From Octopus vulgaris (lineage: Eukaryota), in assembly GCA_951406725.2 (NCBI GenBank), contig OX597839.1, positions 10,106,001-10,170,000 of the forward strand: a stretch of DNA of 64,000 nucleotides, given 5' to 3'. The notes below the pieces were generated by a model. The model saw only the letters and a list, made by a program, of their open reading frames with translations. It was not told the DNA's origin and made no database searches. Positions within the stretch are counted from its first letter, which is position 1; each line of letters begins with the position of its first letter. A program made the position numbers and the translations under genes. This document shows, in pieces, positions 12,466-43,804 of the stretch.

Positions 12466-12470
12466 GTATA

Positions 12471-12512
<42 letters not shown>

Positions 12513-12658
12513 AAGTATATATAACCGCAGATCCACCAAAGCCTTATGGGTGGATTTGGTAAATGTCTACTGGAAGAAGCCAGTTGTGAATATATATCTA
12601 TATATATAAAACCGAGAATATCTGTCTCAGTATATATATAGTGGTTTTTCTCTTATAT

Positions 12659-12709
<51 letters not shown>

Positions 12710-12809
12710 GAAATTTGATTTAATACTAAATTTGGAGTTGTACTCCCTATTATTATTATTATTGATATTATTATTATTATTATTATATATGTATGTATGT
12801 GTGTATATG

Positions 12810-12867
<58 letters not shown>

Positions 12868-12925
12868 TGTGTGTATATGTATATATATGTGTGTGTGTGT
12901 ATATGTATATATATGTAAGTATGTT

Positions 12926-12968
<43 letters not shown>

Positions 12969-13653: not shown

Positions 13654-13684
<31 letters not shown>

Positions 13685-17751: not shown

Positions 17752-20700
17752 ATATGAAGTTAATAAAAGAAAATGGAAAAGAAATATAGTGGATACTTAA
17801 TTAATTTTATTTGTATCATGATGAAAAAGAGTAATACATCATCACACCTCACTCCTCCCTCCTCCATTCTAATTTCCATAGACCATTCAAATTTTAAATT
17901 ATAATATTCAAAAATTCTCATGCTAACTTATCCCAAATTTATTCAATAATCTATAATATTTATTTCATTCTTAAATGGAATATACATATATTCCACTATT
18001 ATACACTTATAACCATTATAATTACCCTTTTGTTTTCAATAATTTACTTCATCAGCCTCTATTTATATTTTTTCCCCATGTAACCCCTAGTTTTTAAAAA
18101 AATACTATTGCTATGACTTTTTATCTTTTGTTTTCTAAAATCTTAACCAACATCGACAACTATTGAAACTTTTAATCTATCTATGTATGCACCTAAAGAA
18201 CTCCACATGTATGTGTATGTATATATATATATATATATATATATGTTTGTGTGTATGTCTCCAGACACACATCTATTTATATACACCCACACATATACAA
18301 ACATATTAATTTCTGTGTAGCTGTGATTTTGTGCATATTTGCTTGTGTAAACCTCTGTTTGGTAAAATAAATGAAAATCTAATTTTGTGTTTTATTCAGT
18401 GGACACCTGAAGGAAGGCGTTTAGTAACTGGTGCTTCCAGTGGGGAGTTCACTCTGTGGAATGGTCTTACTTTCAATTTTGAAACCATCCTTCAGGTAAG
18501 GAAAAGACGTTTTATGCTACTACCCCCCCCCCACACACACACACTCTACTACTACTACAACAATTGTTAGCCATATCAGCTTGCTATATTGCTGGGCCAT
18601 TTGATGTCAAGTTGCATGCGCATACACACGCATAGGTGAGGGTTGGCAGTAGGAAAGGCATCTGTCTGTAGGAAAAATCTGCCTCAAAAAAGCTCCATCT
18701 GACCAATGTACGCATGGAAATCTGGATGTTAAATGATATTATACGAAACAAGCATTTTTGCCACATAGTGGAATTGAACCGGAAACCATGTGGTTGGAAA
18801 GCAAACTTCTTAATCACACAGCTTTACCTGTACCTATATTGTCACAGAAAAAAAATGGGACAGTGATTATGTCAAGAATACTTTTCATCATTAGGTTAAC
18901 TATGTGAAGTCCCCCTCATCAAATACTCTCCATAAGGAGACCTAGTAGCCCCCTTGATGTTGATATGGTCCAGGAAGGAATGGAAATGCTTTGTTCTTTG
19001 ATCTTTCCCTTCAGTTTCACAGAATATAGTTTACTGTTTGTATTTAAACCATACACAGTCCTCTTTTTTTTGAAGATTTTCTGTGTTAACCTTTTAACAT
19101 TCAGATATTACTCTGTCAAATATAATGCTTATTTATTCAAAATGTTTTCACTCAATCCTGCATTGTCTTGTAAGCTTCAAAATTTCAACAATGCAGTTAT
19201 TTTTAGACTGACATTGTAGGGTAAGTGTAAGAGACCAGACTTGCTTTGTTTGAACATAAATCAGATAGAATATTTGGGCTGGACATGGCGAGTTTAAATG
19301 TTAAGGGATTAAAACCAAGCTGAATGGTCACAGCTGGGATGTTTTCCATCATAATAGGGGCTGCTGGATCAGGACTGTATTGGGACTACTATTAGAGCAT
19401 TTTCCTTTCTTAATGCATATGCAGATATCCAAATGTATGAAAATTAACCCACTTTCATCATGTAGAACGTGTATGTATATATGTATATATGATGTCTTAC
19501 ACTGGTGGTTCTCAACTTCATCCACATGACCCTTGGTGGGGATGAGGTCCATATAAGATTGTTAAAATTCATGTTATAAATTGCTTATACTTCTATTATA
19601 CACAAAATATTTTAATCTTTTTCATACAAGTCCTAATAGTATTTAATGAAAATACAGTATGATTTTTTTTTTATATACATTGAATGGCTATGGTAGTCCA
19701 TTAGAATGAACCAGGAATCAAAGGGGTCTGTAGGCAAAAAATGATTGAGAACTACTGTTTTAGACTATATCTGTATGTTTGTATGTATATATCTGTGTAT
19801 GTGTGTAATTGCATAATTATGGAATCTTCCCTTTCTTCTTTGTTACTAGGCACATGATACATCAGTGCGTGCCATGGTGTGGAGTCACAGCGACACTTGG
19901 ATGGTTACTGCAGATCATGCTGGTTATATAAAGTACTGGCAATCTAACATGAATAATGTAAAGATGTTTCAGGGCCATAAGGAACCAGTTCGAGGTATCA
20001 GGTACGCTACACGGAGTCCACAACTGGCCTGGGCAGGCAGTAGTAGGAACGCTCTTACCTTCATTTCTGAAATTATTGGCACCATCTTCTGTGCCTTTTT
20101 TAATGTTGTTGCAGTTTATTTAACCATTACTAGATCTCAGGGTTCTTCTGTTGATGAAAAACTATTAATGTATGGTGAAGACATCCTAGATTCTGGCTAA
20201 AGTTTGTGAGTTACTGTAGCAATTTGGATTTTGTCTGTTTGGTCCAACTGTTCAGATAGCATGTGTGTTTAATAACCTTGAGTTTACTCTTACATGCTCC
20301 TCTGATTTGGTTGACATACTGGGTCCAGTCTGGTCTGGTTACTGTTTGGACATTGCAAATTTATGGGTTGCTGGATCTGAATGATGGTCACTGCTACATG
20401 TTCATGGATCATTGGGCCCGGATATAGTAGCGGTGGCCTCTGCTACATGTCTGGATTACTGGGCCTGAATGTTGCATAGGTGGTCATTGCTTCATGTTTA
20501 TGGATCAGTAGGCCTGAATGTGGTAGTGGTGGTCACTCATATATTTATCGATCATTATACCTGAACATGGTGGTGACAGTGGTCATTACAACAAGTTTAG
20601 AGTGAGGCCGTTATCTCCAGGTGTAGTTGCTGGTGTGATGTAATGACTTGCGACATGTCTTGGGTATTTAAAAACTTGCAGGGCCCATTCCTCTTCAGTT

Positions 20701-23700
20701 GGCTTCTTATGAGGTGAAAGTAGGTGAGAAAAATGAGCGACATCTTTCTCTTTTTCCTACCCTCTTTCATCTCATGAAATCTACTCCAATACCAGACTGG
20801 TAATTTATTTATCAACTCTGAAAGGACAAAAAGCAAAGTTAACATTGATTGAATTTGAAATCAGAGTACAGAAAGCGGGAATAAAAATTGCAAAGCAATA
20901 AACTATACATAAATGTATCACTGGATCTGAATGTAATGGTGATGGTAACGTCAGCTACTGGTTCTTGATATGGCATTGTAGCTGGCCTACAATATTTTCT
21001 TTTATTTTGCCACAGTCATTAGGCTGCAGCCGTGCTCGGGCACCACCTTGAGGAATTTTAGTTGAACTAATCGACCCCAGTATTTATTTTTTTTTTTAAG
21101 CCCGGTGCTAACTCTACCGGTCTCTTTTGCTGAACCATAAGGTACAAGAACATAAACAAACCGACACTGGTTATCAAACAGCGGTGGGGGACAGACACAA
21201 AGATACACACATGCACACATATACAATGGGCTTCTTTCAGTTTCTACTAAATTGGCTTTTGTTGGCCCAAGGTTATAATAGGAGACACTTGCCCAAGGTG
21301 CCATGCAGTGGGACTGAACTCATTGCCATGTGGTTGGGAAGCAAACTTCTTACCACACAGCTATGTCTGCATCTTTATTCTTTCATTCCTTAGTCTATTA
21401 AGACTGATGCAGTGTTTTCTTTCATATTCTGACACTCATCAGCATTTAATATCCACTTTTCCATGCTTGCATGGGCCAGGTGGGATTTGTTTGGGGAAGT
21501 GAGTTTTTTTTAAAGACCTGAATGCCCATCCTCTTAACCAATTTTTGTTTCCAAGCAAGAAAATATTTCTCATGGCCAGGCATCTTTTTCACAGAAGACT
21601 AGAAGCAAACATTGCTTGTATGCTCATTTACAACCACCATGCGATGTCATGACTAGGGTGCACACACACACACACACACATTTACGAAAGCCCACTACTA
21701 TATGGGCTTTCATGGTTTCCTTCTATCCACAAAGCTAAATTTTTGAGGGCTAAATCTATTTAATTTAAATGTTACCAGCCCTGTCACATATATATGTTGG
21801 TTCTGCAAGGAGATTATTATTATTATGATGTCTTAGTTTAACTCTTTCGTTACCAACCTGGCTGAAACTGGCACTGGCTCTGAGTACAAATGTCTTGTTT
21901 TCATAAGTTTTGAATCAAAATCTTCCACTAAACCGTAGTCACAATTTATGTTCCTAACACTACCTAAATGATAACTAAGTTATTTTACTAAATTCTTTGT
22001 TTTATTTAAAGTAATTGAGCGAAACACAGAGTATCTCAAAATAAATACAGTAACAAATGGGTTAATGTCTGTGGAATAGTCAGGCAGTTAAACTATTATA
22101 CGAGGTAGGCCAATGGTTCTCAACGGGGTCCATATAACTCGGGGGAAGGGGGTCCATGTAAAATTTAAAAATTAAATGCAATAAAATTGGTTATATTTCT
22201 ACAATACACAAAATATTTCAATGTCTTAAATACAATTCCTAATAATCAGTTATAAAGATATTTACTCTTTTACTTGTTTCAGTCAATTTGACTGTGGCCA
22301 TGCTGGAGCACCACATTTAGTTGAACAAATCGACCCCAGGACTTATTCTTTGTAAGCCTAGTACTTGCTCCATTGGTCTCTTTTGCCAAACCGCTAGGTT
22401 ACGGGGACGTAAACACCAGCATCGGTTGTCAAGTGATGTGGGGGGGGGGGGCAAACAAACACACACACACACACACACATGTATATATATATATATACAT
22501 ATACACGACGGGCTTCTTTCAGTTTCTGTCTACCAAATCCACTCACAAGGCTTTGGTCGGCCTGAGGCTATAGTAGAAGACACTTGCTCAAGGTGCCACG
22601 CAGAGGGATTGAACCCGGAACTATGTGGTTGGTAAGCAAGCTACTTACCGCACAGCCACTATAGGATTTTTGAAACATTGAATGACTGTGGGGTCCAGTA
22701 GAGTAAAATAGGAATCGAAGGGGTCCATAGGTAAAAAATGTTCGAGAACCACTCAATCTGTCCCCATAATTCATAAAGCAATTTTGTAGTGTAGATTCTG
22801 CCCAAAGATTACATTAAATTTACAAAGTGTTTGTGTATGTTCAGCACCTTACACTTTAATACAATGAGTAGGTAGTTCTATTGATTGAACAACTGGAACA
22901 TACACCAAAACTGATGTATAACCCACCCATCATAGAAAGTAGATTATTTTCTAAAGATAAAATAACTGTTTAACTATTGTGAGTGTTAAAACTGAAATAG
23001 GGATCTATGCTGTTCTTTTGGGTAACTTATTTACTATATTGAAAAAGCACAATTCTCCATTCCTTAGAATTTGAAATTTGGGATGTCTGAATCCTCTCTA
23101 GGTTATTGTCTTATTTTCGAAACTATGTTATTTTTATTCCATTTCAATTAAACTGCACTGGCATTAATTATGTATATGTATTTTTTTTTTTAATTCAATT
23201 TAATCTTCATCTTTATTTACTAATTAAATAAAGTTGTTTTTTTTTTTCTTCTCCTCTTAACCCTAACCCTCTTCCATTTGCTCAACTAATAAACTTAAAA
23301 TCTGGGTTTGGCCCCTATTCCATGCTTTGCCATAATACCACTTCAATAAAGCTGCTTCCTTTCTCTGTTATCAATAAAGTTGATATCGTATATATTTGTG
23401 TGTATGTGTGTGTGTATATATATATATTTGTGTATATATCCCTTTCAAAGATGATGCGTTATAGATGTGCAAAGAATTTGGTTGCCTTTATGATTTAGAT
23501 TTATATATTTCTTGTAAGAAAGTTTTCTAATTTCATTAGATATGCAATGTGTGTGTTTATGTTTATCTCTCTGTATGTGTCTGTCTGTGTGTATTTGTGT
23601 TTTAACACAATACATTAAACTAACCTACTTTTAATGATTTATCAAATTAGGTCATGTTATATTTTGCCTTATTTAATTCTTCAATAGAGATGAAAAGATA

Positions 23701-26700
23701 TTGTGTTGTTTATTCACATCTGGGTCTAAACCAGAGTGATCCTTGTTGTGAGTTTCTGGGAACTAATCAGGTGTCTCTGCTATTCTATTAAGAGTTATTT
23801 CTTTGGCTTTACAATCTTATTTTTTTCATTGTCTAGTTTCCATTTTCTCTGTTAATCACATCGAACTCCATTACTTTACTGAAAAGAATTTTAGCAAGAC
23901 CTCTCTGCTTAGTTATATAAAGCAGCATAGCATTCTCACATAACTTTGCTTGTGTATTGTTGGTCATACAAGATACCATTCCCCCACTTTACACCAAAAA
24001 TTGGTTAAATGTTTCTTCTTAATCACAAGAGAGTACCGTTGAATTTTAATATCAGTTAGATTAATTTAAGTAAACTATATCATATACAGTATTATATACT
24101 GATCAGTTAACTACTAGCCAAGCTAATTTTAACTATACCAAGTGCATCATATTATATTACAGTTTTCTCTGCTCACATAAATAAACTAGTCTTTAAACTA
24201 TTGGATATTATTAGTAGTTGCGATATGAAGTTAGATTACCCCAGGTTTATTGGACTTAACATAAAGTTTATGTAATATAAGTTTGTTTCAACTGTATTTA
24301 CTAAATTTTGTTATTAATTTAAACAAGATTCTCTAGATTTATCTAAGTGTAAGATTATTTTGATCAGTGAAAACTGGTACTCTTTCAGTTAGATGATGAG
24401 TGTTCCAGTTGGTGTGATCAGTGGAACAGCCTGCTTGTGAAATTATTGTGCAAGTGGTTGAACACATGTACCGTTAATGCAGTTCTCAGGCGGATTTAGC
24501 ATGACCCAGAATGTGGCAAGGCCGACCCTTTGAAATACAGGTACTACTCGTTTTTGCCAGCTGAGTGGACTAAAGTGTTTTGCTCAAGGGCACAATGCAA
24601 TATCAGGTATCAAACTCATGACCTTACATTCATGAGCTAAATACCTTGACCACTCAGCCACATGTATAGAGCAGGGAAATAACTCAGAAAAAACAAGGAT
24701 TTAAATGTTAATTTGGTTTTTGAGTAGGAGGAATGTTTGATAGTTGCAAACTCTTACACCTCATCCATTTTCAACTGTTTCTTACTTTCTTGACGTTGTA
24801 AGACTGGTCAGCGAAGGGTGTTTTGTGATTTTGTTGTTTGTATGGGACAAATCACAAAAATACCCAGAAAATACACAAGTTAACTTAAAAGATATTAGTT
24901 ATCTTGTACAAAATTGGTTGACAGATAATAGTTGTCTTATAGAGAATTGACTGAGAGGTGCTAGTTGTTATCTTGTAGATAATAACTGCTTGGTAAATGG
25001 CAATTATAGAATGGAATATTTATATTCTATATGTGTTGTCTTCTCTTGACTACATTCACCCCAAAGATTGGTTGTAATGCTGTAAGACTTAGATAAATGT
25101 CTCTTTATTCAAAGTAGTGAATATTGTTTGTCTTTAAATCTCTGAACTCTTTTAACTACAAGGGAGTTGGTTTCTATGTTGCTCTTATTTAATTTGCATC
25201 TTAGTCAATATCAGTTATATTCAATATCAGTTATATTGCTACCTAATATGTCTGTTGTCACTCATGTCTGTTGTCAGAGTTGAACTTGTTTTCAGCCTTG
25301 TAGACTGTGCTGTCCAAGAACATGACACAAACTGTTGTGATGTGCATAAGCAATAGTCCATTACTTTGCATCTTGTTTTGAGTTATGGTTGGTCAGAATT
25401 TTCTCTGTAAACATGTTCAGCTATGTCTTTCTGCTGGTCTTATATCTTGTATTGTTTCTATTTCAAATACTAATGGTACAGGAGAAGGTTGATTCATAAG
25501 CTACAACATTCACAGAAATAGATCAGTCTTCATTTTTTTTTGTTTTTGTTTTTTTGTTCCCCTCTGAATATTTTAGGGAATTCAATGATTACATTTTTTT
25601 AAAAATAGGTCACATGTCTGATCCTTCTGACATAACTCTTTTTCTTTTATTCTTCCACAAAATTTTATCTATATTTTGCTCTGCAAATTTCTGAATCTCT
25701 GTTAGTGGCATGGCCCTTAGTATTGATTCCCAACTTAAGTTGCCAATTTAACTTTGAGGAAAAAAAAAAAAGAAAAGGAATGAATGTCAACTCTTCAACT
25801 TGCTATTTTTTTTAATATATATAATACTTTTTATAATACATCTTTGATCTTGTCCCAGAATAGAATCTCCAGGAAAACAATCCCATTTAATCCCTTATGT
25901 TTAACCCTTTAACATTTAGGTTACTCTGACAAATAATATTAAGCTTATTTTATCATATTGTTTTGAATTAATCATGCATTATATCATAGCTTGAAGATTT
26001 TGATGATCTAATTGTATATTTTTATAATGACATTGTAGTGTAGGTATGAGAGGTTGGATCTGGCTAGTTTGAACATTAAACAAGTAGGATATTTTGGCTG
26101 GATATGGCCAGTTTAAATGCTAAAGAGTTGAACTGGGTATGTGATATGACAACAGTGGTGATGATGTTGAGGAATAAGTTTTATATTTCATTGTCCTGAA
26201 CTTTAAGTTTTTACTGAACTGAAACAGGTGGATACTCTTGACACATTTCTTAGACATTTTAAGAAACCTTCATCTTATTTGAACTAAGAGTTGCTAATCG
26301 ATGTTTGCATATCCTGCTGCTTGTTTTTTTTCCTTTTTTTTTTCTTTGGCTTTTCATCTTTACCCTGCCCTTGTCCCAGTGGGCATCTTATTAATGATAA
26401 AGAGGAATATATATATCCACGTGAAACTGAAATTGCTCTTTCAATAAACACATTCGTTCATCCTGTCAGAATGATTACCTGTCTTACTCTGTATGTTTGT
26501 GCATGTTCGCATACACCTATAAATATTATATATATATAATATCGACTTTTGAAAAAGTCTATAAATGCAAAAAATACGAATTCAATGAAAATGTTAAAAA
26601 AAAAAAAAAATTTGATTTAATAAATATAAAAAACAACAACCAAATCAATGTTAATGAAAAGGGATATTATTGGCCTGTTTACACTTTCTGTTTCTATGGC

Positions 26701-27162
26701 AACAACTTAGTATCACTGGCAACAGTATCAGTAGCCGAACAATTTGTATATATATTCATATACATACATATATATATATATATCAATAAAATAAAATTTT
26801 TGCCCCTCTCCCACATGATTATTATGATTGATTATTATTATTATTTGTAAGATTAAATAAAAATAAGAAAAATAAATAAATACCTTTTTTCTTACGTAAT
26901 AAAGATAAGATTTCTTAATAAAAATAATTTGGTAAAAGTAAGCCATTTGTATCTGTTGTCTTTATTTTCACGACAACTCTCATACGTGTATGACTAACTT
27001 GTCCATCTGTTTCCTCTTTAGAAAGGGTTTGTCTGGCAGGTTTCAGGGGAGTTGTTTCTGGTGAGGGAGGTAATAACACACATACCATTACCTTCTTTTT
27101 ATAAACGATCTCAAAAAGGATGTTTAACTGCTTTCTCCATCTGCAAGTGTAGATATCTCTGC

Positions 27163-27193
<31 letters not shown>

Positions 27194-30100
27194 ATAATTC
27201 TTCATATATTTGGGTATATCTCTTCCTGTATAATATACATCTGTTGGTGTATATTATTTCGATATGCATGTATCTATATCTGTGTGTATATATATATAAT
27301 ATGGTTTTTGGGGTCAGTTCCTCTGTCCAGCACCTTGACTATGTATCTTTCATAATCTCATACTGACCAAAGCTTTGTGAATGAATTTTTGTAAAAGAAA
27401 ACTGAACGAAGTTTGTGTGAATGTATTTATGTATATATCTATTTTCTATGTATATGGATGATGACTGCTGTGTAAAGAAGTGCCGATCTCTAATTGTAGG
27501 GAAACTTGTTGGTCAGATTCTACAGTATCGGTTGCAGTCAGTAGTATAGTGTAGCAATAACAGCAATTGTTGGTGTCATGGTAAGGCGAGCTGGCAGAAA
27601 CATTAGCACGCTGGGTGAAATGCTTAGCGGTATTTCCTCTGTTGTTACGTTCTGAGTTCAAATTCCTCCGAGGTCGACTTTGCCTTTCATCCTTTCAGGG
27701 TCGATAAATTAAGTACCAGTTATGCACTGGGTTCGATGTAATCGACTTAATACCTATGTCTGTCCTTGTTTGTCCCCTCTATGTTTAGCCCCTTGTGGGT
27801 AATAAAGAAATAGGTAATACAAGTTAGTGTGGGTGTGTAAAGAGTTGATGGGGGAGAAAGATCACTGAACAATTGCTGAACTTCAAGGTAAGGTTGCTTA
27901 GTAGGCAATGTATTTTGAGAAGTTCTTTGTTCAGATGGGGCTACTTTATTTGAAGGTGTGAATTGGTGATTGTGTGAAGGAAAAGTGAGAAATGATGAGT
28001 AGGTGAAAGGTAGATGAAATGAGGTAGTTAGAAAAGCCAATTCATGCTATTCAGTTCAGATCTGTTCTTTTATCTTTTACTTGTTTCAACCATTAGACTG
28101 TGGCCATGCTGGGGCACCACCTTAAAGAACTTCTTTTCGTCGAACGAATTGACCTCAGTACTTATTTTAAAACCTGGTACTTATTCTATTGATTCTTTTG
28201 TTGAACTGCTAAGTTATGGTGATGTAAACAAACCATCACCTGTTATCAAGCAGCAGTGAGGGGGACACACACACATAGATATACATTTGATGGGCTTCTT
28301 TCTTATTTCTGTCTATCAAATTCACTCACAAGGCTTTGGTCAGCCCGTGGCTGTAGTAGAAGTCACATGCCCAAGGTGCCATGCAGTGGGACTGAACCTG
28401 GAACCATGTGGTTGTGAAGCAAGCTTCTTACCCCACAGCCATGCCTCTTGTTGATTTCTGGTTTATATTACTGAATGAGAATCATCCTTAATTATTAAGT
28501 TACTAATATTTTGGTCAGTGGCTAAAGTGGACATTCCAACTTAATGGTATGGTTACAACCTTTATGAAGATGTTTCTTGATCAACGGAGTACATGTATGT
28601 GCAAGTAAGGTGTTCCTTAACCCGTTAGCTTTCAGATTATTCTATCAAATGTAATGCTTATTTATTCCAATTTTTTTGAATTAGTCATGCATTATCCCAT
28701 AGGTTTTGATGATGGAATAACTTATTTTTAGATCGACATTGTAGGATAGGTGTGTGGGGCCAGACCCAGCCAGTTTGAACATAAAACAGAATATTTTGGC
28801 TGGATATGGTCAGTTGAAACACTAAAAGGTTAATCTGAGTGTGGGGTTTCTGGATTGTGCTGCCAAAATAGTGACCCTTCATTTATGGCATTTTACCTAA
28901 TACATGACATATGCACCTAGACATATTTATGTCCCTGGTAGGGCTGTTTGTTAGCACCAACATGTTGGTCTCAAGAGTTGTTGTTTTTTTTGGTTAAAAT
29001 TCAGTGTAAAGAGGGTCTAGAGTGGCTTAGACATTTATCTAGCCCCTCCTTGTGGATGGCTTTTTGGTGGTAGTCTTAAGCTGTGACAGTTTAACCTTTG
29101 AATATTCAGATTACTGTCAAAAGCAGTGCTTGTTTATTCACATTGTTTTGCATTAATCATACAGTATCTTTTAGCTACAAGATTTTGATGATGTGATTGC
29201 TTAGTTTTAGAATGACATTGTAGGGTAAGGTATGAGAGGTCAAATGAGGCCAGTTTGAACAAAAAACAGGTAGAATATGTAGATAGGTGTGTGGGGCCAG
29301 ACCTGGCCAGTTTGAACTTAAAACAGAATATTTTGGCTGGATATGGTCAGTTGAAACACTAAAAGGTTAATCTGAGTGTGGGGTTTCTGGATTGTGCTGG
29401 GTTTAAATGCTAAAGGGTTACAGAAGCAGATGTTCTTGTGGGCATTCTGCCATTTTATGTAAAGGAATCTGTTTGGGATGAGTGAAAGATGTATGTAAGT
29501 GACTTAGTCAGTCACCTTGCTACACTTATCACAAACGCATGCAAACTAATTTTGGATGTAGATGCCTGTTGTAAAGAAGGATTAGGAGTCAAAGGTGTTG
29601 AATGTTAGACTTCCAAAACATTCATGTGTGTTATTGCAAGCAGGGTGAGACACTGGTTCCTACTGGTAGTTCAGAGGTTGACTTTGCAGATGTAATGGTT
29701 GAAATATGCTCCCTCCTCTTTCTCTTCTCCTTTGAGACAGCTGGTGCTTTGACACCACTGCATCTTGTTGGCCAGAAGTACCTCGGGTTAATGAATCTAA
29801 TGAGCCAATAGTCTTATTTATAACTTCAGCGAACAAAACTTTGCTGATCCATGATGATCTCTGCTAACCAACAACAAATTGAGACACACACTCACACACA
29901 TATTATTAGCGATAGAAGCAGTATTAGTACTGAATAGCAATTTGCACATCCTACATAATGTGGTATATGTACAGATTAATTTATATCTTAATGTAATAGA
30001 TTTTCTGTAATAATTTGCATATGTTACTTATAGCGAGGTCATTACCAGTACCGCCTGACTGGGCACGTAAAAGCACCCACTACACTCTCGGAGTGGTTGG

Positions 30101-30893
30101 CGTTAGGAAGGGCATCCAGCTGTAGAAACTCTGCCAGATCAAGACTGGAGCCTGGTACAGCCATCTGGTTCGCCAGCCCACAGTCAAACTGTCCAACCCA
30201 TGCTAGCATGGAAAGCGGACGTTAAACGACGATGATGATAATACTCAGGACACTCCTAGAGTATTATAATACAATGAAATAAACAACCGACACAATGTAG
30301 CTTGAAGTTAGTCCTCTTAAGTTTCGATCTTTTCATTTCTTCAGGAATAGCCCTAAGTTGGATAAGAAATGTTATTCCTAAAGAAATTACAAAAGGGAAA
30401 CTTAAGTCGAATAAGCGTTATGTGATGACACCTATTATTTATTTTTATTGCATATGTGTCTCTTTTATTCTTTTACTTGTTTCAGTCATTTGACTGTGGC
30501 CATGCTGGAGCACTGCCTTTAGTCGAGCAAATTGACCCCAGGACTTATTCTTTGTAAGCCTAGTACTTATTCTATTGGGCTCTTTTGCCGAACTGCTAAG
30601 TTATGGGAAGTAAACACACCAGCATCGGTTGTCAAGCGTTGTTGGAGGGACAAACACAGATACACAAGTATATACACACATACATATATACATATACATA
30701 TATATGACAGGCTTCTTTTAGTTTCTGTCTACCAAATCCACTCACAAGGCTTTGGTCGGCCCAAGGCTATAGTAGAAGACACTTGCCCGAGGTACCACGC
30801 AGTGGGACCGAACCTGGAACCATGTGGTTGGTAAGCAAGCAACTTACCACACAGCCACTCCTATGCTTATATATATATATGTGTGTATAAAAA

Positions 30894-30931
<38 letters not shown>

Positions 30932-33900
30932 AAAAAATTGTTTTAATATTCACTTTTCCATGCTTGCATGGGTTGGACAGAATTTGTTGAGACAGATTTT
31001 CTAGAATTGGATGCCCTTCCTGTTTCCAAGAAAGGTAATTTCCCTCTGCTCAGACATGTTTTCATGGGAGATTGGAAATGAACACCACTTGCATGTTCAG
31101 TCACTTACAACTATCATGTGATAAACAATCACTACAAGGTGATAGTAATACATGCACATACATCCACAGGAGGCTTCTTTCAGTTTCTGTTTGACCAAAT
31201 CAACTCACAAGACGTGGGCTATTGTAGAAGACACTTGCCCAAAGTGCCATGCAGTGGGACTGAACCTGAGATCATGGAGTTGGAAAGTAAACTTCTTATC
31301 ACAGCCGTGTCTGTATCCATATATATCATCATCATTAGGGTGGCGAGCTGGCAGAATCATTAGCACGCTGGGCAAAATGCTTAGTGGTATTTTGTCTGCC
31401 GTTACGTTCTAAGTTCAAATTCTGCCGAGGTCAACGTTGCCCTTCATCCTTTCGGGGTCATCATCATCATCGTTTAACGTCCGTTTTCCGTGCTTGCAAG
31501 GGTTAGACAGTTTGACCGGGGTCTAGGAAGTCAGGAGGCTGCACCAGGCTCCAGTCTGATCTGGCAGAATTTCTACAGCTGGATGCCCTTCCTAACACCA
31601 ACCACTCCGTGAGTGTAGTGGGTGCTTTTTACGTGCCGATTAAATAAATACCAGTTATGTACTGGGGTTGATGTAATCGACTTAATCCCTTTGTCTGTCC
31701 TTGTTTGTCCCCTCTATGTTTAGCCCCATGTGGGCAATAAAGAAATACATATATATCATCATTGTTTAACATCCATCTTCCATGCATGCTTGGGTAGGAT
31801 GAATGACAGGAGCAGGCCAGGTGGAAAAAGTACTGTGTCTATTTTGGCAGGGATTTTATGGCTGGATTCCTTTCTTAACACCAACCGCTCCACAGAGTGG
31901 ACTCAGTGCTTTCTATGTGGCACTAGCACAGGCGAAGTTAGTTTTGTGAAGAGTTTTACAGCAGGATACCCTTCCAAATGCCAACCACATTACAGTGTGG
32001 ATTGGATGCTTTTAATATGGCACTGGCAGGGTAACCAAGTGACTCACAAGACAAGGAGTTATGAGAGGGGCAGGGCATTTGTGGAGGGGAACTTGTGTGA
32101 GAGGATGAAAGGTTAGAGTGTGACAAGGAGACAGAGACACAGAAGCAGGTATCTTGCCACAACAGAGGGGGAATAAGAGGTGATCCAGTATCAAATGATG
32201 AAAGGTTAGAGTGTAACAGAGAAGTAGAGAGGCAGAAATAGGTGTCTTGTTATAGAGGAGGTACATGGTTACCCAGCGAGAGAGAGAGGCTAGAAACAAG
32301 TGTGCTGATGTAAAGGAAATACTTGGTTATCTAGCCTGAGGTGAAACGAGGAGAGAGAGAGAGTGTGACCAAAGGGAGAGAGAGAATAGGAAACAGCAAA
32401 AGTGTAAGAGAGAGTAAAAGAAAAATGGTGTAGTGCTAGGGTTTACTCACAAGTAACAAAAATATGAGTGTAGAACCTGGTTAGAAAAACAGGTTGGGGG
32501 TGTGGGGAGCAGGGCAGTGAGGGCAAGGAAGGAGATTGGAAAACAATCATAATTTATGAAGAGGAATTGTGAGGAAGAGAAAGATGCAGATAGAAGAGGA
32601 GTTGTAGTTCAATTTCTTAGGGCAGGGTGGGTGAGAAGTGTGTTGTTACATGTGGATGGGACCCAACTCTTCTAGCACTCAGTTTCATGGATGGGTCTTC
32701 CCTAGGACCTCATATCACCAAACGTCTTGCTCCACTGTCATTTCCTCTATGAGCCCCCAACATCCTAAGATCAGTCTGCACCACTTTGCTAGATCAGAAT
32801 AGAGCTTGGTGCAGCCTCCTGGCTTACCAGTCCCCACTCAAACCATTCAACCCATGCCAGCATGGAAAACGGACATTAAATGATGATGATGAAGAAATAA
32901 CCAATTATCCATCCATTTTCTCCACTCACTATTCCTGGGAGAGTTGTTGGGGTAGCATCCCCGGGTGCTTCTTCCATAAGTCCCTATCAAAAGCAGTTGT
33001 CATTACACATTCTTGCTGGATTCTCAAGCATGACCAGCTGAGATTAGTTATTATCCAGCCATTTCATTCTTGGTCTCTCCAGATTGAGCCACTATTTCTC
33101 TGCATTGAGCAATCACAGCTCCGTTGCTATGGACTTGTGATAAGAATGTTGCGGGGAAGGATCACAAGACTTATTCTTCAAACCAATCCAACTTGCAGGA
33201 GACCTGGGAGTATACCTCAATTGCATCATCATCATCATCATCATCATTTAGTGTCCGCTTTCCATGCTAGCATGATTTGGACGGTTCAACTGGGGTCTGG
33301 GAAGCCAGAAGGCTGCACCAGGCCCAGTCTGATCTGGCAATGTTTCTACGGCTGGATGCCCTTCCTAATGCCAACCACTTCGTGAGTGTAGTGGGTGCTT
33401 TTTACGTGCTAGACGGGGTTGGCAAATGGCCACGGTTGGATGTGCTTTTTATGTGCCACCGGCACAGGGGCGAGGCGAGGCTGGCAACGGCCATAATCGG
33501 ATGGTGCTTTTTACGTGCCACCGGCACTGGTATCACAGCTACAATTTCCATTGATGTTGATCAATTTTGATTTTGATTCTGATTCTGCAGTGGTTGGAAC
33601 ATTTAAAGAAAAATTAAACTTTTGACTGACCTGAAAAATACATTTTTGGAAAAATGGCACTTGGACTAGATATATTAAAGAGGTTATTCAATATGCATAG
33701 CCTCTTTAATATATCTATATTTAGTAGTGCACCTGCACCCTGTATATAGGTGCATGTGTATGTGTAATCTATTATATAAAATCTGTTCTGTCTGTATGTG
33801 TGTCTTCTAGGATCTCGGGCATCCTCCATCTGATTGCGCTCAGATTTGATATGTGGATACCGACGGTATCAGGGCGTGTATAAGTCTTGAAAAAAATTGC

Positions 33901-34145
33901 AAAAATCGATTTCAGGTGAGAATGAGATCGATAAAGCCGTGGGAACGTGGATTTGCACACGCAAGTACATCAGTTGTTGCGATTGATACTATGCGTACAC
34001 GAGAAAAATGCAGGGTGTCTCCGATTTAGGTTAACTCAGTGTTTCTCAAAGGGGAGGCCTATGGGACGGTTGGACAAGTTGTTTTGAGAAAATTTGGTTT
34101 AAATGTTTGACAACTCAGCACCGTCCATTGGATGGGGGTGTTTTG

Positions 34146-34191
<46 letters not shown>

Positions 34192-34745
34192 TACATGTGT
34201 ATGTATGTATGTGTGTGTATATATATATATACATATATATAAACACACACACATACATATCAATAATATGATTTAAGAACTAACATTGAATTCAGGTTAA
34301 CAAACTTTATATATTCACGCTTTTACACTTTATTACATATAAATGATACCATGGCTTTCAAATGTCAAAAAAAAAAAACACCAGGTAAAAATCATATATA
34401 AAAAATATAAAATACACAGGACCTGCTCAGAACACATATTCTGAGCATGTTCTGTGTATTTTGTATTGTTTTTATATATGATTTTTACCTGGTGTTAGTA
34501 TTTTTTTTTTTGATATTTGAAAGTCATGGTATCATTTATATGTAATGAAGTGTAGAAGCGTGGATATATAAAATTCATTAACCTGAATTCAATATTTGTT
34601 CTTATATTATCTGTATGTTTCTGGCTCAATATCATTTGAGCACTTCTCTCCTGCAGTCCTATATATATATATATATATATATCAGTCCTATATATATATA
34701 TCCATCTTTTTCAATCAAAAGAAATGTAATTTATAATTTACTTCT

Positions 34746-34796
<51 letters not shown>

Positions 34797-37700
34797 TATA
34801 TATATATATCATCATCATCGTTTAACTTCCGCTTTCCATGCTAGCATGGGTTGGACATATATATATATGCATATGTATTATCTTATCTTTCCAAGAAGAT
34901 GTAGGTCTGTGCAGATATCTCATATACATACATTTTTTACTCTCAAACCATTATCGTACATTTTGTTTCTGATAAGACAGATAGGCTTAACCAAGTTCTT
35001 TCATTTTCTTTGTACAAATTCTGATGGCGGTTGGGTATGTTGTTTATCCAACAAGGGTCTATAAAATATTTTATAGTCATGTTCTTCACTCCAAATTTCT
35101 TTCTATGTTTTATATCAATAATGTCGTGGTATATGAAATGTGTCAATAAAATGTCTTATGATGTTTTAGTTGTGTCACTCTTCTGAATTCAGATACCACT
35201 CGGGTTATCTTTGTAGTTAAACTGTTTGTTGAGTTGATACATGTACCAGTTATGTACAGGGGGTTGATATCATACTCTCTCCCAGGAATTTTGTGGTCTT
35301 GTTTCTTTGTTAGAAATTGTCATTATTGAATTTAAACTTTCGTCCTACCTGGGTGGATAAAAATAATATAGCATTTACGTACTGGTCATCAGTTTAATTG
35401 ACTAACGTCTCACTTCAGAAACTGCGGTCCTTGTGCCTAAATTAAAAATTATTATAATTTGCAGAAGGTGGCAACCTGGCAGAATTGGTGGCATGCCAGA
35501 CAACATGCTTGGCGGTATTTCATCTATCCTTATGTTTTGAGTTTAATTTCCACCAAAGTTGACTTTGCCTTTCATCCTTTCAGGGTTGATAAATTAAGCA
35601 CCAGTCAAACACTTTGTTCCTTCTTGAGCCATGCCTGGCTCATAAGGGCCAAATTCCCTGTTTCCTTGGCGTATAGGTTCCCCACCTGGACGGGACGCCG
35701 GTCCGTCACAGGTGAGCTGCAAGATGCAGGTGGAAAGAGAGGGAGAAAATTGTGGTGAAAGAGTTAGCAGAAATTCGCCATTACCTTCTGCCAGAGCCGT
35801 GTGGAGCTTAGGTGTTTCGTTCATAAGCACACACATCACCTGGTATGACATTCGAACCCACGATCCCTCAACTGCGACTCCATTGCTCTAACCACTAGGC
35901 CATGTGCCTCCACAGTCAAACACTGGAGTCAGTGTAATGAATTTGTCCCCCACCACATATGTTTCAAAGCAAGCAGAACCTCAGAAGTAGTAAATATCCA
36001 AGTGTGGTGTATACCACAAGCTACTCATCAGGCCAAGGGTATCTTGATTAAATGAAGCTTACTCTATTGCAAGGAGGTACATGTTAAAACATGAAAGATT
36101 TGATCAGAATGTGGATCACATTCTGATCGAATCTTCTATGTGTTAACATGTACTTCCTTATTTTTTTAAGCCTTGTACCTATTCTATCAGTCTCTTTGCC
36201 AAACTGCTAAGTTATGGGAATGTAAACACACCAATTCGATCAGACTGTGGATCACATTCTGATTGAATTTCCTGTGTGTTAACATGTAGCTCCTTGCAAT
36301 ACAGTAAGCTTCATTTAATCAAGATACCCTTGGCCTGATGAGTAGCTTTTGGTATACACCTCACTGGGATATTTAGCACTACCAAGGTTCTGCTGGCTTT
36401 GAAACATATGTAGCCCAGATCTTACCTACTCCATTCCGTAACACTTGTATTCTTATTTGCATACCTTGGCAACCCTGGTTGCCTACCGTGAAATACTAAA
36501 AATAAAAAAAATTCCAGCTTATTGTACTTCAATATGAAAAAATCCATAACCTTCTACTTCAATAAGCCACTATTGTTCTTGAAAGTTGTTTTTTATATTT
36601 ACTATGGATTGCTTGAAGCTAACTTTCTTCCTACACCTCGATCCTTGGATCTTACATATATATATATATATGACAGGCTTCTTGGCGTTTCCATCTACCA
36701 AATTCACTCACAAGGCCTCAAGGTTGGCCCAAGGCTATAGTAGAAGACATTTTCCCAAGGTGCCATACAGTGAGACTGAACCTGGAACCATGTGGTTGGG
36801 AAGTAAACATCTTACTACACAGCTGCACTTGTGACCAATTGCATGCACATTCACACACATATTTGCTGCGTAGTTGAGGATCTGATGTGTCTGTCCAAGT
36901 CAATTTTTAAAATATCTGATGCTGTTAATAGGTCATCTACACTCATTTCTCTTTTTCTTAGTGATTACCATTTTTTTTGTTTTGTTTACATTCATATAAA
37001 CTGTAATTGTGTTTATGTGTCTGTATAGACACCTTCCCTGTGTGTATGTATATATGGGCATAAGAAAACACAAATAGTAAATATATTCATTTATAGGGAC
37101 TCACACACTGATACAAAATGTACCCCTCCTTTTTTTATTATGATAGGGTGTGTTTTGAGGGAGATTTGACTGCTATTTCTAGCCAATCAAGAAGTAACTG
37201 ATTCAGAAAAGTAATCAGCATCATCATCATCGTATAACGTCCGCTTTCCATGCTAGCATGGGTTGGACGATTTTGACTGAGGACTGGCGAGCCAGATGGC
37301 TGCATCAGGCTCCAATCTTGATCTGGCAGAGTTTCTACAGCTGGATACCCTTCCTAACGCCAACCACTCCGAAGTGACTGATTCAGAAAAGTAGTCCTGC
37401 TTGCCAAACAATCTTAGAGATATTTAAGGCAGTCAGCCCTATGTAAAAGCTTGCTAAGGTATACTGTGTTAAATTGTTTCACATTGACATTAGGAGTAGT
37501 GTTGTCTTCATACAAAGAATAGACTAGTATTTTTGATGTTTTGTTGTGCTTTGTTACGTTGAGAGGGGTCTTAATTTTCATCCCTTTGTTTACCGGAATA
37601 ACTGGTCAAAATCCTGTCTTTGTGGTGATTTGTCTTTGTGGGGTTACCACTCGGGTATTCTCTTGGCTATTTCATTGTTGGCCAGAGCTAGACCATCATT

Positions 37701-40700
37701 ATCTTTTATCTTTTACTTGTTTCAGTCACATTGAATTTTTAGTCAAATGATTTGACCTCGGTACTTTTACTTTTTAAGCCTTGTACTTATTCTATCAATC
37801 TCCTTTGCTGAACCACTAAATTACAGGGGCATAAACACACTAGCACCAGTTAGCAAGTGGTGGTGACACACATACACACGATAGGCTTCTTTCAGTTTCT
37901 CTTTACCAATTCCACTCACAAGGCTTTGGTCAGCCTGAGGCTATAGTAAAAGACACTTGCCCAAGATGCCATGCTGTGGGACCGGATCTAGAACCATGTG
38001 GTTGGGAAGCAAGTTTCTTACTACACATCCATAAGTTACGGGGATGTAAACAAACCAGCATCGGTTGTCAAGCGATGTTGGGGGACAAACACAGGCACAC
38101 AAATGTATACACACACACACATATATATGATGGACATCTTTCAGTTTCCATCTACCAAATCCACTCACAAGGCTTTGGTTGGCCCATGGCTATAGTAGAA
38201 GACACTTGCCCAAGGTGCCACACAGTGGGACTGAACCTGGAACCATGTGGTTGGTTAGCAAGTTAATTAGCACACAGCTGCTCCTACGCCTACAATACAC
38301 AAAATATTTTAATCTCTTTTAATACAATTCTTAATACTTTTTTAGCCATCGTCCATATTTGTTATACCTTCAGAACTACAAGTAATGCAAATCATTTGCT
38401 TTGAATTAAATTTTGCTGAACATATGCAAAAACTTACACACATACATGCACTGGGGTCTTGATTTGGAAGTCCTTGGGTTCTTTAAGAGTGTGGAACCAC
38501 CTTTTAGCCACTATTGTTCCTTACTCTAACCCAGAGTAGTAGCACCTGCCAGGGTCCTAGCAATATGTTAATTAGCTTGTTATGGAAGAAACCCCAAGCA
38601 CAAACCCTCACTGCTTTATGAATATCTTGGGAAAGGAAAGTCTGAGGGAGTCAACCCTGGCAGCAGATTAAGGAGTGGAGTGTTGGCAGTCCGGTACCCT
38701 CTTTGATACCCTTCTGGCAACTCCAGAGTAGTAGTAGAAGTTCTACAGCCTTGTAAAACAATTCATTTAGGAAGAGGCCACACCAATGTAAAACCTAAAG
38801 CTTGCTGGTCATTGCAACTGTCTTAGCTCACAGATCCACTCTGGTTAAATCTTCAAGGCTAAAGGGTGGAATCGGATTGCATGGACTGACCTAAGTGCTG
38901 TAAGAGAAACCTTGCAGTGTCAGGGATTGGAATACATATCTACTTGGGGATGTGTCACTCTTCTTTATGTTCTGGTACAAAGAAACTGCCCTCATCATAT
39001 ATAGCTTACATTTTATCAATGGCATTTTCCAGTGATACACTTTAGATGGTGTAGATTTGGGCTATCTTTTATCTTCTTTCAGTCATTTGACTGTGGCCAT
39101 GCTGGGGCACTGCCCTGAAGAATTTTTTTAGTTAACATATCGATGACAGTACTTATTCTATCTTCCTCTTGCTGTACCGCTAAGTTATGGGGACGTAAAC
39201 ACACCAACACCCATTGTCAAGCGATGGTGCTAGAGACAAACACACATATATATATGATCGGCTTCTTTCAGTTTCGACTACCAAATCAACTCACAAAACC
39301 CGTGGCTATAGTAGGAGACATTTGTCCAAGGTGCCGCGCAGCGGGACTGAACCCAGAACATGTGGTTGGGAAGCAAGCTTCTTACCACACAGTCACGCCT
39401 TCGCCTATATATTCGAATTTGTAAAAACAAATACCAGAGGAGGGGAGAAGAGTTTCGGATAATTCACGCACTTGCTCAAAACTGGATATTTTATCATAAA
39501 ATCTAATATAAATACGATTCAGATTCTGTATGATGTGGAGGGGAAAAAATTGACGATAGGTTCAGATAATTCACACAATGACTTTATCTCCACTTTCGTT
39601 TCCCCATTTTATAAAATATATATAATGAAATTAATGTATACAGTGATCAGGTGCACCTCAGGTGATGGTGTGTGTGAATTATCGCGCCTCCCCACCCAAC
39701 TTTTCTTTTCCCATCAAATTCCAATATAATCATAATCAACATCTGAAACTTGGGTGTTGAAAATTCTATTTAAAAATGTCCATTTTTCAGAAAGTTATGA
39801 GAAGCAAAATCTTGGAGTAGTGTGGGATATTGCATACGTATATCTGTAGTTACGCTCGCTTACAATACAGCGTTAATCAGAAGTACTGAAATAAACTTAG
39901 ATATTAGAAAGCCTTAGCTGGGATAAAGAACTATATAAGAATGTAAACCTATTTCTTCCATGCTTTTGATGTACGGAAAAAAAGGAGTGCGGAGACTCCT
40001 GATATTCCCGTTCCTCAGAGAAGACATTTCTGCTCTAATCAGAAGAGTAGAAATTTAAAAGAAAGGAATAGTCGATTATATTGAACCCCGTACTTTTATT
40101 TTATCGATCTTAAAAGGACGAAAGGCAAATATGACCTCGGCGGCATTTGAATTTAGAAAGAGCTGCCCAGCGCTCTCACCGCCCTTTATATAGGGTGTAA
40201 CTTCGGTATAAGTACCGGATACATTTCAAGAAAGTGTTTTTTTATTTTTTATATATGATGGGGTTAGGGTTAGGGGTGGGAGAAAAGGGTTTCTGTTATC
40301 TTCAGAAATGTAAACAAAGCCACTTCCGGTACTTATACCGAAGGATCGCCTTATATAGATAGATATAATGGATGGGAAATATACGAGTGGAGTAAGCTAA
40401 TACAAATTAAAGAGGAATAACTAAACAGAAGAAAAGGACTTTTTCCTTGTTTTCTCCACACGCACATGGGTAGCCATAATTTGACGTCATTTGTATTCTT
40501 CACTTCCTGTCCTGTAAGGTTATCTCCCTTGCCTTCTCTATACTTCCTCTCTTCACTTCTTTCTCGGTGTCTTCCTCTCTTTATCCCCCCTCTCCCTCTT
40601 TACTATACTATCCACCTCTATTTTCCTCTCCCTCCGTTCCGTTCTGCCTCTGTACACGCGCTCTCCCTATATTCTCTCACTCTCTATTAAAAATTTGTCT

Positions 40701-41643
40701 TCGCTCCCTCCTTGCTCTGTCTGTCTGTCCCTCTCTCATTCTGCTTTTGTCGTTGTTTTATATCTGTTATGTTCACACTAAAAAATAAAAAGTTTATGGA
40801 GGAATATATGCGATGATTACACTAGAATTCGGCCGACTGTATAATTTTGTTATATTTGCTGAAGGAAAACAAACCCAAATAGTTTGAAACGTGTTTAGGT
40901 TCTTCTTCTTCTTCTTCTTCTTCTTCTTCTTCTTCTTCTTCTTCTTCTTCTTTCCTTTCCCTTTCTTTCTTTTCCTTTCTTTTCTTTTCCTTTCTTTCTT
41001 TTCTTTCCTTCCTTTCCTTTCTTTGTTTCTTTCTTTCTCCTCCTCCTCTGGGTTCAGTCCCACTGTGCGGCACCTTGGGCAAGTGCCTTCTACTATGATT
41101 TTAGGCTGACCAAAGTCTTGTGACGGGATTTGGTAGATGGAAACTGAAAGAAGCATGAAATACATTTATAATGCTGCGTGTGTGTGTGTGTCTTCTACTG
41201 TCATACCATAGCAGTTCAGCAAAAGCAGACCAATAGAATAAGTACCAGGCTTCAGAAAAACATAAGTTCTGGAGTCGATTCGTTTGACTAAAAATTCTTC
41301 ATCAGACTGCATGGCTAATGACTAATCGCTGAAACAAGTAAAAGATAAAAGGCAAAAATACATTTCAGATGGTGCAGATTACAACTCTGTCAGAATTTAA
41401 TGGGTGGGGTTGGGGACTTCTGAGGCTATGGTGATGAGCTTTGGAAAATTCACGCGTGTCAGCTTTGTTTCTTCATAGCTTTCAGTAAAATGGTGTTTTT
41501 TTTTTAGGATTGGCTGGGTGGTAAGTAGCTTGCTTACGAACCGCATGGTTCCGGCTTCAGTCCCACTGCGTGGCACCTTGGGCCGACCAAAACCTTGTGA
41601 GTGGATTTGGTAGATGGAAACTGAAAGAAGCCCGTCGTATATA

Positions 41644-41674
<31 letters not shown>

Positions 41675-43194: not shown

Positions 43195-43239
<45 letters not shown>

Positions 43240-43255
43240 CTCTCTCTCTCTCTCA

Positions 43256-43319
<64 letters not shown>

Positions 43320-43760
43320 GCCTCTCTCATGAGCTGTGATGATTTTGCCTCTCCTAACGGCATTACCAAGGTAAGTGGAGCAGACAAGTTATTGGAGCTA
43401 CACAATTCAACAGATTGTTATTATTCAAACTGCTAGAAATAACAACCAAATTTCTCAGAGAATCATTACATGGAAGTATACATTGGATAATCTAATCAGG
43501 TGGTGGGGGATGATATGATGGTTATGACTGGAATACCTTTCTGTATATGTTTGCTTTTTTTAGGGCCAACCTAGGGCTAAATAACAACACCTGTGTTCAA
43601 TACATGGTCCCTGTTCACTGTAACCTGATTATATCACCACCTCATAGAATGATGACCAGTATTCAGTTATTTCTTTACCTTTTATTTCAAATATTGCAAG
43701 ATCTTTTCTTCTGCCTTTTGACCAGCATTCTCTCCCCTACACATATGTTGGTATCTTGCC

Positions 43761-43804
<44 letters not shown>

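What the first reader, a model, noticed from the sequence alone, without database searches (positions are those of the whole stretch)
26320..26925. In-phase alternative last exon with a strong acceptor and nine AATAAA
Seen: a pyrimidine tract of about 55 nt ends cccag|T at 26379/26380. The exon-5 AG plus T restores the same Ser codon as the normal exon 6 and continues 52 more codons to TAA at 26539. Nine AATAAA lie between 26443 and 26922. Inference: a skipped terminal exon yielding an isoform of about 304 aa that lacks most of the propeller, competing with the acceptor 24 kb further on.
Basis: partly seen in the sequence, partly recalled or inferred. Interest (0 to 1): 0.72.

Follow-up and report, generated by a model that had tools for sequence, protein, structure and literature searches.

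The report
Intronic poly(A) site in cephalopod WDR33
The signals are real and most likely mark the early end of a shortened message from a core RNA-processing gene, but that message probably runs unspliced into the intron and encodes a membrane-tailed short protein already known in humans, rather than using a new spliced last exon.

Summary
The sequence facts hold: a good acceptor at 26379/26380, 52 open codons, nine AATAAA (2.4-3.0 expected) and a 304-aa product if spliced. The gene is a cephalopod WDR33/PFS2, and the intron sits where vertebrate WDR33v2 leaves the canonical protein. The spliced-exon reading found no support: no 20001->26380 joint among the 15 of 249 joints shown, contigs cross the acceptor unspliced in 4 of 4 runs, and the exon peptide has no homolog. 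Reading through the exon-5 donor instead gives a 317-aa protein with a hydrophobic tail, conserved in two cuttlefish-like proteins (29 of the first 40 residues). 80 of 82 homologs that diverge at this junction show the read-through signature and none begins with Ser. 35 of 37 homologous introns carry AATAAA in their first 500 nt; this one does not. The cluster is therefore probably the displaced poly(A) site of a V2-type read-through RNA with a 3' UTR of about 6.7 kb. Minor use of the acceptor is not excluded: only assembled contigs were available.

The parts
19850..20001 (+). Fifth coding exon of WDR33/PFS2 (second WD repeat and start of the third); phase-2 end
   Evidence: homologs named WDR33/PFS2
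20002..20007 (+). Non-consensus donor GTACGC (2 of 4 matches to AAGT at +3..+6; the other nine donors score 1,2,3,3,4,3,3,3,4)
   Evidence: only 1 of 37 homologous donors is GTRAG
20002..50480 (+). 30,479-nt intron, 53% of the coding span; the same position at which vertebrate V2-type proteins diverge
20000..20200 (+). Read-through frame: 66 codons and a stop; gives a 317-aa V2-type isoform
   Evidence: conserved in P0001 and P0226; longest read-through of the gene's 10 donors
20072..20128 (+). Hydrophobic 19-residue segment (Kyte-Doolittle mean 2.23), candidate membrane anchor
   Evidence: 2.01 and 2.07 at the same place in P0001 and P0226; 8 of 91 other intron ORFs reach 2.23
20880..20902 (+). 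Proximal AATAAA pair, poor downstream element; an X1 contig runs past it
23227..23378 (+). Four AATAAA, a possible intermediate poly(A) site
   Evidence: use not shown
26294..26379 (+). Branch-like CTAAT, long pyrimidine tract and CAG: an acceptor-like element
   Evidence: crossed unspliced by contigs in 4 of 4 runs
26380..26539 (+). Proposed alternative last exon frame (53-aa tail if spliced)
   Evidence: no homolog, no Pfam match
26443..26922 (+). Cluster of nine AATAAA; TGTA at 26490, 26745 and 26846
26596..26610 (+). Genomic A15 tract, the longest in the intron; a possible site of internal oligo-dT priming
26917..26970 (+). Best-formed poly(A) site: AATAAA 26917, CA at 26944, GU/U-rich stretch after it (predicted cleavage near 26945)
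   Evidence: predicted, not mapped
50481..50578 (+). Canonical next exon (exon 6)

Best explanation
The AATAAA cluster is the intronic poly(A) site of a WDR33v2-type RNA. When the weak exon-5 donor is not spliced before polymerase passes about 26.9 kb, the RNA is cleaved near 26945 and the first 6.9 kb of the intron stay as a composite last exon. Translation reads through the donor and adds a 66-residue hydrophobic tail (stop at 20200; 317 aa, about two WD repeats), followed by a repeat-rich 3' UTR of about 6.7 kb. Each such event also removes one full-length WDR33 message. The acceptor-like tract upstream of the cluster is mostly not spliced; it may help define the 3' end. Shown: sequence anatomy, conservation of the read-through tail, unspliced contigs across the acceptor. 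Inferred: cleavage at the cluster, a single RNA from exon 5 to 26.9 kb, membrane insertion, any role of the tract.
For: Read-through tail kept in two Logan proteins with complete multi-exon N-termini, P0001 (307 aa) and P0226 (309 aa, clustered with Sepia pharaonis PFS2): 21 and 20 of the first 22 residues and 29 of the first 40 identical. Of 215 anchored WDR33 homologs, 82 diverge at this junction; 80 of 82 show Arg followed by F/L/S/Y/C/W, which AG|GT must give; 2 end at Arg; none starts with Ser. Among the 75 with multi-exon N-termini the count is 73 of 75, 44 of them vertebrate. In 37 distinct genomic homologs the in-frame read-through has a median of 72 codons against 16 and 17 in the other frames. 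35 of 37 have AATAAA in the first 500 intron nt (71 against 16 reverse complements; 13 of 17 rough kin groups lean the same way, 1 the other), while this intron has none there. Dense clusters recur in that intron (8 per 480 nt in L001, 7 in L025 and L026). In one search, contigs bridge 26379/26380 with more than 31 letters on each side in 4 of 4 runs from 4 studies; an X9 contig bridges the donor (19938-20133); an X1 contig runs 19972-21197 from the point where the 584-nt exon contig ends (20001). Human V2 arises from retention of the intron with an in-frame stop and intronic poly(A) sites, and homologs are reported in Drosophila and Nematostella (PMC11019558).
Against: No raw reads, poly(A) tails or long reads were available, and no piece spans exon 5 to the cluster. 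The runs are RNA only by guess, no DNA run was laid, and splicing is inferred only for X1. Unspliced intron cover could be pre-mRNA caught at the A15 tract. In X9 the essential canonical junction leaves no break either, so an unbroken contig does not exclude a junction. Only 15 of 249 joints were shown. The V2-type RNA could end at 20880/20897 or 23227-23378 instead; the cuttlefish-like contigs are only 1565-1587 nt long. The acceptor looks real (branch-like motif, 87-nt AG-free zone) and this model does not fully explain it. Hydrophobicity alone is weak: 34 of 91 other intron ORFs reach 1.6. The homolog sets are not independent and were drawn with read-through queries, which may favour read-through forms.
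Confidence: 0.6

Rival explanations
1. One reading: the exon-5 donor splices to 26380 and a skipped last exon is the main RNA ending at the cluster, giving a 304-aa protein.
For: Acceptor ranks 5th of 854 YAG, with a branch-like motif and a long AG-free zone; it is in frame and lies directly before the cluster. In organism C the stretch 26274-26470 has at most 1 substitution and the AG is not listed as changed. Human V3 is made this way, but in the next intron (PMC11019558). Contig assembly drops rare joints.
Against: No such joint among the 15 shown; contigs unbroken across the acceptor in 4 of 4 runs. No homolog of the peptide (0 hits, although clustering can hide such isoforms, as it hid P0226 under P0002). 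0 of 82 diverging homologs start with Ser. The first AATAAA lies inside the frame. Tail hydropathy of 1.40 equals the intron-ORF median of 1.38. Use as a minor form stays open (about 0.35, my estimate).
Confidence: 0.13
2. No real 3' end: an A/T-rich intron patch with chance hexamers, covered by pre-mRNA primed at genomic A-tracts; the V2-type RNA ends further upstream.
For: 75% A+T, an A15 tract and three more A-rich stretches in 26584-26884; chosen post hoc; whole-contig divergence in organism C is not significantly low (6 of 609, P=0.13).
Against: Nine hexamers against 2.4-3.0 in composition-matched shuffles; densest window in 64 kb with no TTTATT in 26320-26925. Contigs of X1 and X2 extend to 26925 and 26933, beyond the last A-rich stretch (ends 26884), and no further A-rich stretch occurs up to 27800. 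0 of 233 differences at 26645-26877 in organism C against 1.7% in the listed intron pieces (Fisher P=0.044).
Confidence: 0.17
3. The acceptor is used, but with a donor inside the retained intron downstream of the read-through stop, removing part of the long 3' UTR and possibly sending that RNA to nonsense-mediated decay.
For: It would explain a well-formed acceptor whose peptide is not conserved.
Against: No joint into 26380 from any place among those shown; contigs cover the sequence just upstream of the acceptor in 4 of 4 runs.
Confidence: 0.1

Closest known systems
Human WDR33v2 (NET14), Liu and Manley 2024, PMC11019558
   Same: Same gene, same junction, read-through of the donor into an intron-encoded hydrophobic tail, about two WD repeats, intronic poly(A) signals; similar length (317 aa here, 326 aa in mammalian P0177).
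   Different: The human signals lie in intron 6, exon 7 and intron 7, close to the stop. Here the intron is 30.5 kb and the dense cluster is 6.2-6.7 kb past the stop, behind an acceptor-like tract. The tail is 66 aa and looks unrelated in sequence to the vertebrate 118-aa tail. ER location and STING binding are untested here.
Human WDR33v3 (same paper)
   Different: V3 keeps the next exon and splices in the following intron (three WD repeats); the paper found no invertebrate V3. The acceptor here is in the V2 intron and its use is not shown.
CSTF3/CstF-77 intron-3 poly(A) feedback site, Luo et al. 2013, PMC3708835
   Same: 3'-processing factor gene; a very large intron (33.2 kb, 43% of the gene there; 30.5 kb, 53% of the coding span here); weak donor; conserved sequence at the donor; intronic poly(A) site.
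   Different: Feedback was shown there and not here; the short CSTF3 RNAs have no apparent protein product, whereas here a conserved coding tail exists.
PCF11 intron-1 PAS1, Kamieniarz-Gdula et al. 2019, PMC6458999
   Same: Tandem AATAAA in an early intron of a 3'-processing gene; that paper also shows WDR33 among transcripts attenuated by PCF11 in human cells and zebrafish (figure legend).
   Different: Different gene, 3-kb intron, autoregulation proven by deletion.

Membership tests
WDR33v2-type isoform | Diverges from canonical WDR33 at the intron after the second WD repeat | tested here: met
   Same junction column in the window and in 44 vertebrate-type short forms
WDR33v2-type isoform | Coding sequence reads through the donor to an in-frame intronic stop | tested here: met
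   66 open codons; conserved in P0001 and P0226; X9 contig bridges the donor (RNA is a guess)
WDR33v2-type isoform | [quoted passage not shown] | tested here: met
   Propeller matches end near the junction in P0001, P0226 and mammalian P0177 alike; tested on the homologs and carried to the window by 48 of 50 identity in exon 5
WDR33v2-type isoform | Intron-encoded transmembrane segment | tested here: inconclusive
   KD19 of 2.23, 2.01 and 2.07 at the same place in three cephalopod tails, but 8 of 91 control ORFs reach 2.23; no topology predictor was run
WDR33v2-type isoform | RNA ends at an intronic poly(A) site | tested here: inconclusive
   Hexamer excess and context; contigs cannot show an end
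WDR33v2-type isoform | ER location and STING binding | not testable with these tools
   Shown only for the human protein (PMC11019558)
Skipped alternative last exon (V3-like mechanism) | Strong acceptor followed by poly(A) signals with no downstream donor needed | tested here: met
Skipped alternative last exon (V3-like mechanism) | Splice junction from the upstream exon into the acceptor | tested here: inconclusive
   Not among the 15 of 249 joints shown; contigs unbroken in 4 of 4 runs; contigs drop rare forms
Feedback intronic poly(A) attenuator (CSTF3/PCF11 type) | Large intron, weak donor, intronic AATAAA | tested here: met
   donor strength by consensus match only, no MaxEnt score; the first donor of the gene scores lower still
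Feedback intronic poly(A) attenuator (CSTF3/PCF11 type) | Site usage falls when the factor is depleted; deleting the site raises full-length RNA | not testable with these tools
   needs perturbation data

The most novel reading that the evidence does not exclude
This WDR33 intron is an animal-wide switch, with a weak donor, an open tail frame and intronic AATAAA kept across distant animals. In this cephalopod the poly(A) site has moved 6.9 kb down a 30-kb intron and gained an acceptor, so one AATAAA-dense 3' end serves two products: the unspliced membrane-tailed V2 form and a spliced, soluble 304-aa form. Because WDR33 itself reads AAUAAA, the cluster would act as a feedback sensor that trades full-length WDR33 for short forms.
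Probability: 0.15. Interest if true: 0.7.

Novelty: new member of a known kind. Interest (0 to 1): 0.4.

Why it matters
It extends WDR33v2-type intronic polyadenylation, described in vertebrates, fly and sea anemone, to cephalopods, with a tail whose start is almost unchanged between this species and cuttlefish-like relatives. The comparison of 37 homologous introns suggests that the weak donor, open frame and intronic AATAAA are under selection across animals even though the tail sequences differ. That makes two questions testable: whether V2's membrane role (STING in humans) is ancestral, and whether the intron mainly attenuates the AAUAAA-reading subunit, as known for CSTF3 and PCF11. For annotation, the short isoform should be modelled as read-through first.

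Tried and rejected
No genome is held for this window, so no cephalopod genomic comparison of the acceptor was possible; none of the 80 metagenome loci matches the window's read-through tail. No RNA holder is listed on record; 14 holders are 'RNA?' by guess. I laid 4 of the 24 listed runs and no DNA run. The listed contigs end at 26925 (X1), 26933 (X2), 26812 (X7) and 26877 (X9), and X2's bin depth at 26859-27175 is fully explained by its one contig, while X1 and X9 have unexplained depth there; without a DNA control I do not count this as a mapped end. Contig depths (X1: 42 on exon 5, 10 just inside the intron, 14-17.5 further on; X9: 51 at 26095-26470) cannot rank isoforms and are not used. 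Missing cover of exons 4-5 in X2, X7 and X9 may come from the tool's filter. Repeats swamped the joint table. A sharper conservation figure (at most 1 of 430 in organism C, Poisson P=0.005) rests on boundaries chosen after looking, and is set aside. No RNA structure at the donor (z=0.54). Exact look-ups of nine window frames found none in the protein collection (1, 8), so this species' own isoforms could not be inspected. Pfam gave nothing for either tail. Three look-ups of earlier findings returned nothing. One search had off-by-one exon ends, corrected; the acceptor near 57620 was not resolved, so the full-length protein was not rebuilt. Rows dropped before counts: 4 of 219 proteins without the anchor motif; of 80 loci, 6 without anchor, intronless ones, duplicates and those with under 450 nt of intron, leaving 37.

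Full report
Gene and host. The + strand carries a WDR33/PFS2 gene: coding exons at 5707-6039, 7416-7484, 16635-16739, 18400-18495, 19850-20001, 50481-50578 and on, with homologs named 'pre-mRNA 3' end processing protein WDR33'. The closest hits are 92-96% identical over exon 5, and one clusters with Sepia pharaonis PFS2, so the host is a cephalopod. That it is an octopus is my impression from memory and is not established. An acceptor at 5686 precedes the ATG, so a non-coding exon probably lies upstream (inference); 'exon 5' is the fifth coding exon.

Observation. All the stated facts hold. The acceptor has 88% pyrimidines over 50 nt, an 87-nt AG-free zone and a branch-like CTAAT at 26294; it ranks 5th of 854 YAG in the intron. 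Splicing would give 304 aa. The nine AATAAA are the densest group in the window and exceed shuffles (2.4-3.0 expected). Less impressive are the matching Ser (one base), the 52 open codons (55 of 854 YAG do as well) and the first hexamer lying inside the frame. The best-formed site is the last: AATAAA at 26917, CA at 26944 and a GU/U-rich stretch after it, with TGTA at 26846.

Reading through the exon-5 donor (CAG|GTACGC) gives 66 open codons to a stop at 20200, the longest read-through of the gene's ten donors, and a 317-aa protein with a hydrophobic segment (KD19 2.23). Two Logan proteins with complete multi-exon N-termini on contigs of about 1.6 kb, P0001 and P0226, carry the same tail: 21 and 20 of the first 22 residues and 29 of the first 40 are identical to the window, with the hydrophobic peak at the same place. 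The proposed exon peptide found nothing in a word-seeded search (1 candidate, none at E<=1) or in phmmer over 1.84 billion representatives (0 hits). That negative is limited, because short isoforms can hide inside a cluster, as P0226 did.

Wider comparison. Of 219 proteins from two searches, 215 could be anchored, and 82 leave the canonical sequence at this junction. 80 of 82 have Arg followed by F, L, S, Y, C or W, which an unspliced AG|GT must give; two end at Arg; none starts with Ser. Seven are probably single-exon calls on genomic DNA; without them the count is 73 of 75, of which 44 are vertebrate-type. They include annotated isoforms of Patella vulgata, zebrafish and mammals. In 37 distinct genomic loci the in-frame read-through has a median of 72 codons against 16 and 17 for the other frames (28, 4 and 11 of 37 reach 40 codons). 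Only 1 of 37 donors is GTRAG, and 35 of 37 introns have AATAAA in the first 500 nt, 71 against 16 for the reverse complement. Many loci are close kin; in 17 rough groups 13 lean to AATAAA and 1 against. The queries were read-through sequences, which may bias the sets. The window's intron has no AATAAA in its first 500 nt; the first pair is at +879 and the dense cluster at +6.4 to +6.9 kb, which suggests that the usual site is displaced here (inference).

Transcript evidence. Twenty listed runs hold the stretch or part of it, none on record as RNA. I laid four 'RNA?' runs from four studies and three organism labels on 18300-27800. In X1 a 584-nt contig ends exactly at 20001. Its 430 upstream letters and the depth of the exon-4 bin (12.6 seen, 12.8 expected from exon 4 alone) fit spliced exons 1-5, so X1 is probably RNA (inference). 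A second X1 contig starts 30 letters inside exon 5 and runs to 21197, and an X9 contig bridges the donor. At the acceptor, single contigs run 26096-26517 (X1), 26193-26517 (X2), 26096-26517 (X7) and 26095-26470 (X9), unbroken in 4 of 4. No 20001->26380 joint is among the 15 shown, but 234 were hidden and repeats dominated the table. Against my reading: contigs drop rare forms; X9 shows no break for the canonical junction either; no piece spans exon 5 to the cluster; no DNA run was laid; and the A15 tract at 26596 could prime pre-mRNA. The listed contigs stop at 26812-26933, two of them beyond the last A-rich stretch, which fits an end near 26945 but does not show it. Organism C has 0 of 233 differences at 26645-26877 against 35 of 2008 in the listed intron pieces (Fisher P=0.044), but the two terminal contigs taken whole are not significant (P=0.13).

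Mechanism. Most likely (0.6), competition between a weak donor on a 30.5-kb intron and a poly(A) cluster 6.9 kb in yields an unspliced composite last exon, a 317-aa two-WD protein with a membrane-type tail and a long 3' UTR. Cleavage at the cluster, a continuous RNA and membrane insertion are inferred. That acceptor-binding factors can aid 3'-end formation without splicing is recalled, not tested. Rivals: no real end here (0.17), the spliced exon as main product (0.13), or an intron within the 3' UTR (0.10). Minor use of the acceptor is compatible with the best explanation.

Known systems. Liu and Manley 2024 (PMC11019558; I saw the first part of the text, passages, the Discussion and the text of supplementary Figure S7, not the figure) describe human V2, made by intron-6 retention and intronic or exonic polyadenylation, with two WD repeats and a transmembrane tail, at the ER and regulating STING, with homologs in Drosophila and Nematostella; V3 is spliced in intron 7 and had no invertebrate homolog. 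A review repeats this (PMC11331416, passages). CSTF3 intron 3 has the same large-intron, weak-donor layout with feedback (PMC3708835, abstract and first results section). PCF11 has tandem AATAAA with autoregulation, and WDR33 appears among PCF11-attenuated transcripts (PMC6458999, passages). Searches for WDR33 with octopus, for WDR33v2, and for cephalopod alternative polyadenylation listed nothing on a cephalopod WDR33 short form (search listings only); subscription papers and bioRxiv supplements were not covered.

Verdict. Observation confirmed, interpretation partly supported. This is a new member of a known kind, V2-type intronic polyadenylation of WDR33, with an unusual distal site and an unexplained acceptor. 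Interest 0.4.

Noticed in passing
window 20002-20067: The first 22 read-through codons are nearly unchanged against two cuttlefish-like proteins (21 and 20 of 22), more than the hydrophobic part that follows; this may be RNA-level constraint at the donor, as reported for CSTF3. No folded structure found (z=0.54).
   Followed up: partly
window 20385-20537: Degenerate 49-nt tandem repeat (3.2 copies) just after the read-through stop.
   Followed up: no
L005, L011, L016, L018, L030-L032, L035, L036, L041, L042, L044, L047, L053, L057, L075: A group of related loci keeps an AATAAA about 270-335 nt into the homologous intron, often before the read-through stop, like the in-frame signal described for human V2.
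   Followed up: partly
L019, L043, L046, L048, L074: The read-through frame is short (1-10 codons) yet AATAAA remains near the donor, which hints that attenuation can persist without a membrane tail.
   Followed up: no
window 6040-6045: The first coding donor (GTATTC) is also far from consensus and has two AATAAA within 500 nt.
   Followed up: no
window 9173-9883, 53947-54255, 59368-59622: Frames that look like fragments of LINE-type reverse transcriptases (label recalled, not searched).
   Followed up: no
window 11400-13800: About 2.4 kb of TA/CATA-type microsatellite in intron 2, GC 0.21 in 12001-14000.
   Followed up: no
window 63385-64000: No AATAAA or ATTAAA after the stop of the last long frame within the window, so the full-length 3' end lies beyond it.
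   Followed up: no
P0221, P0223, P0229, P0230: Cuttlefish-like Logan proteins called from the penultimate exon alone, on contigs of up to 6.5 kb, suggest frequent intron retention near the 3' end of the gene.
   Followed up: no
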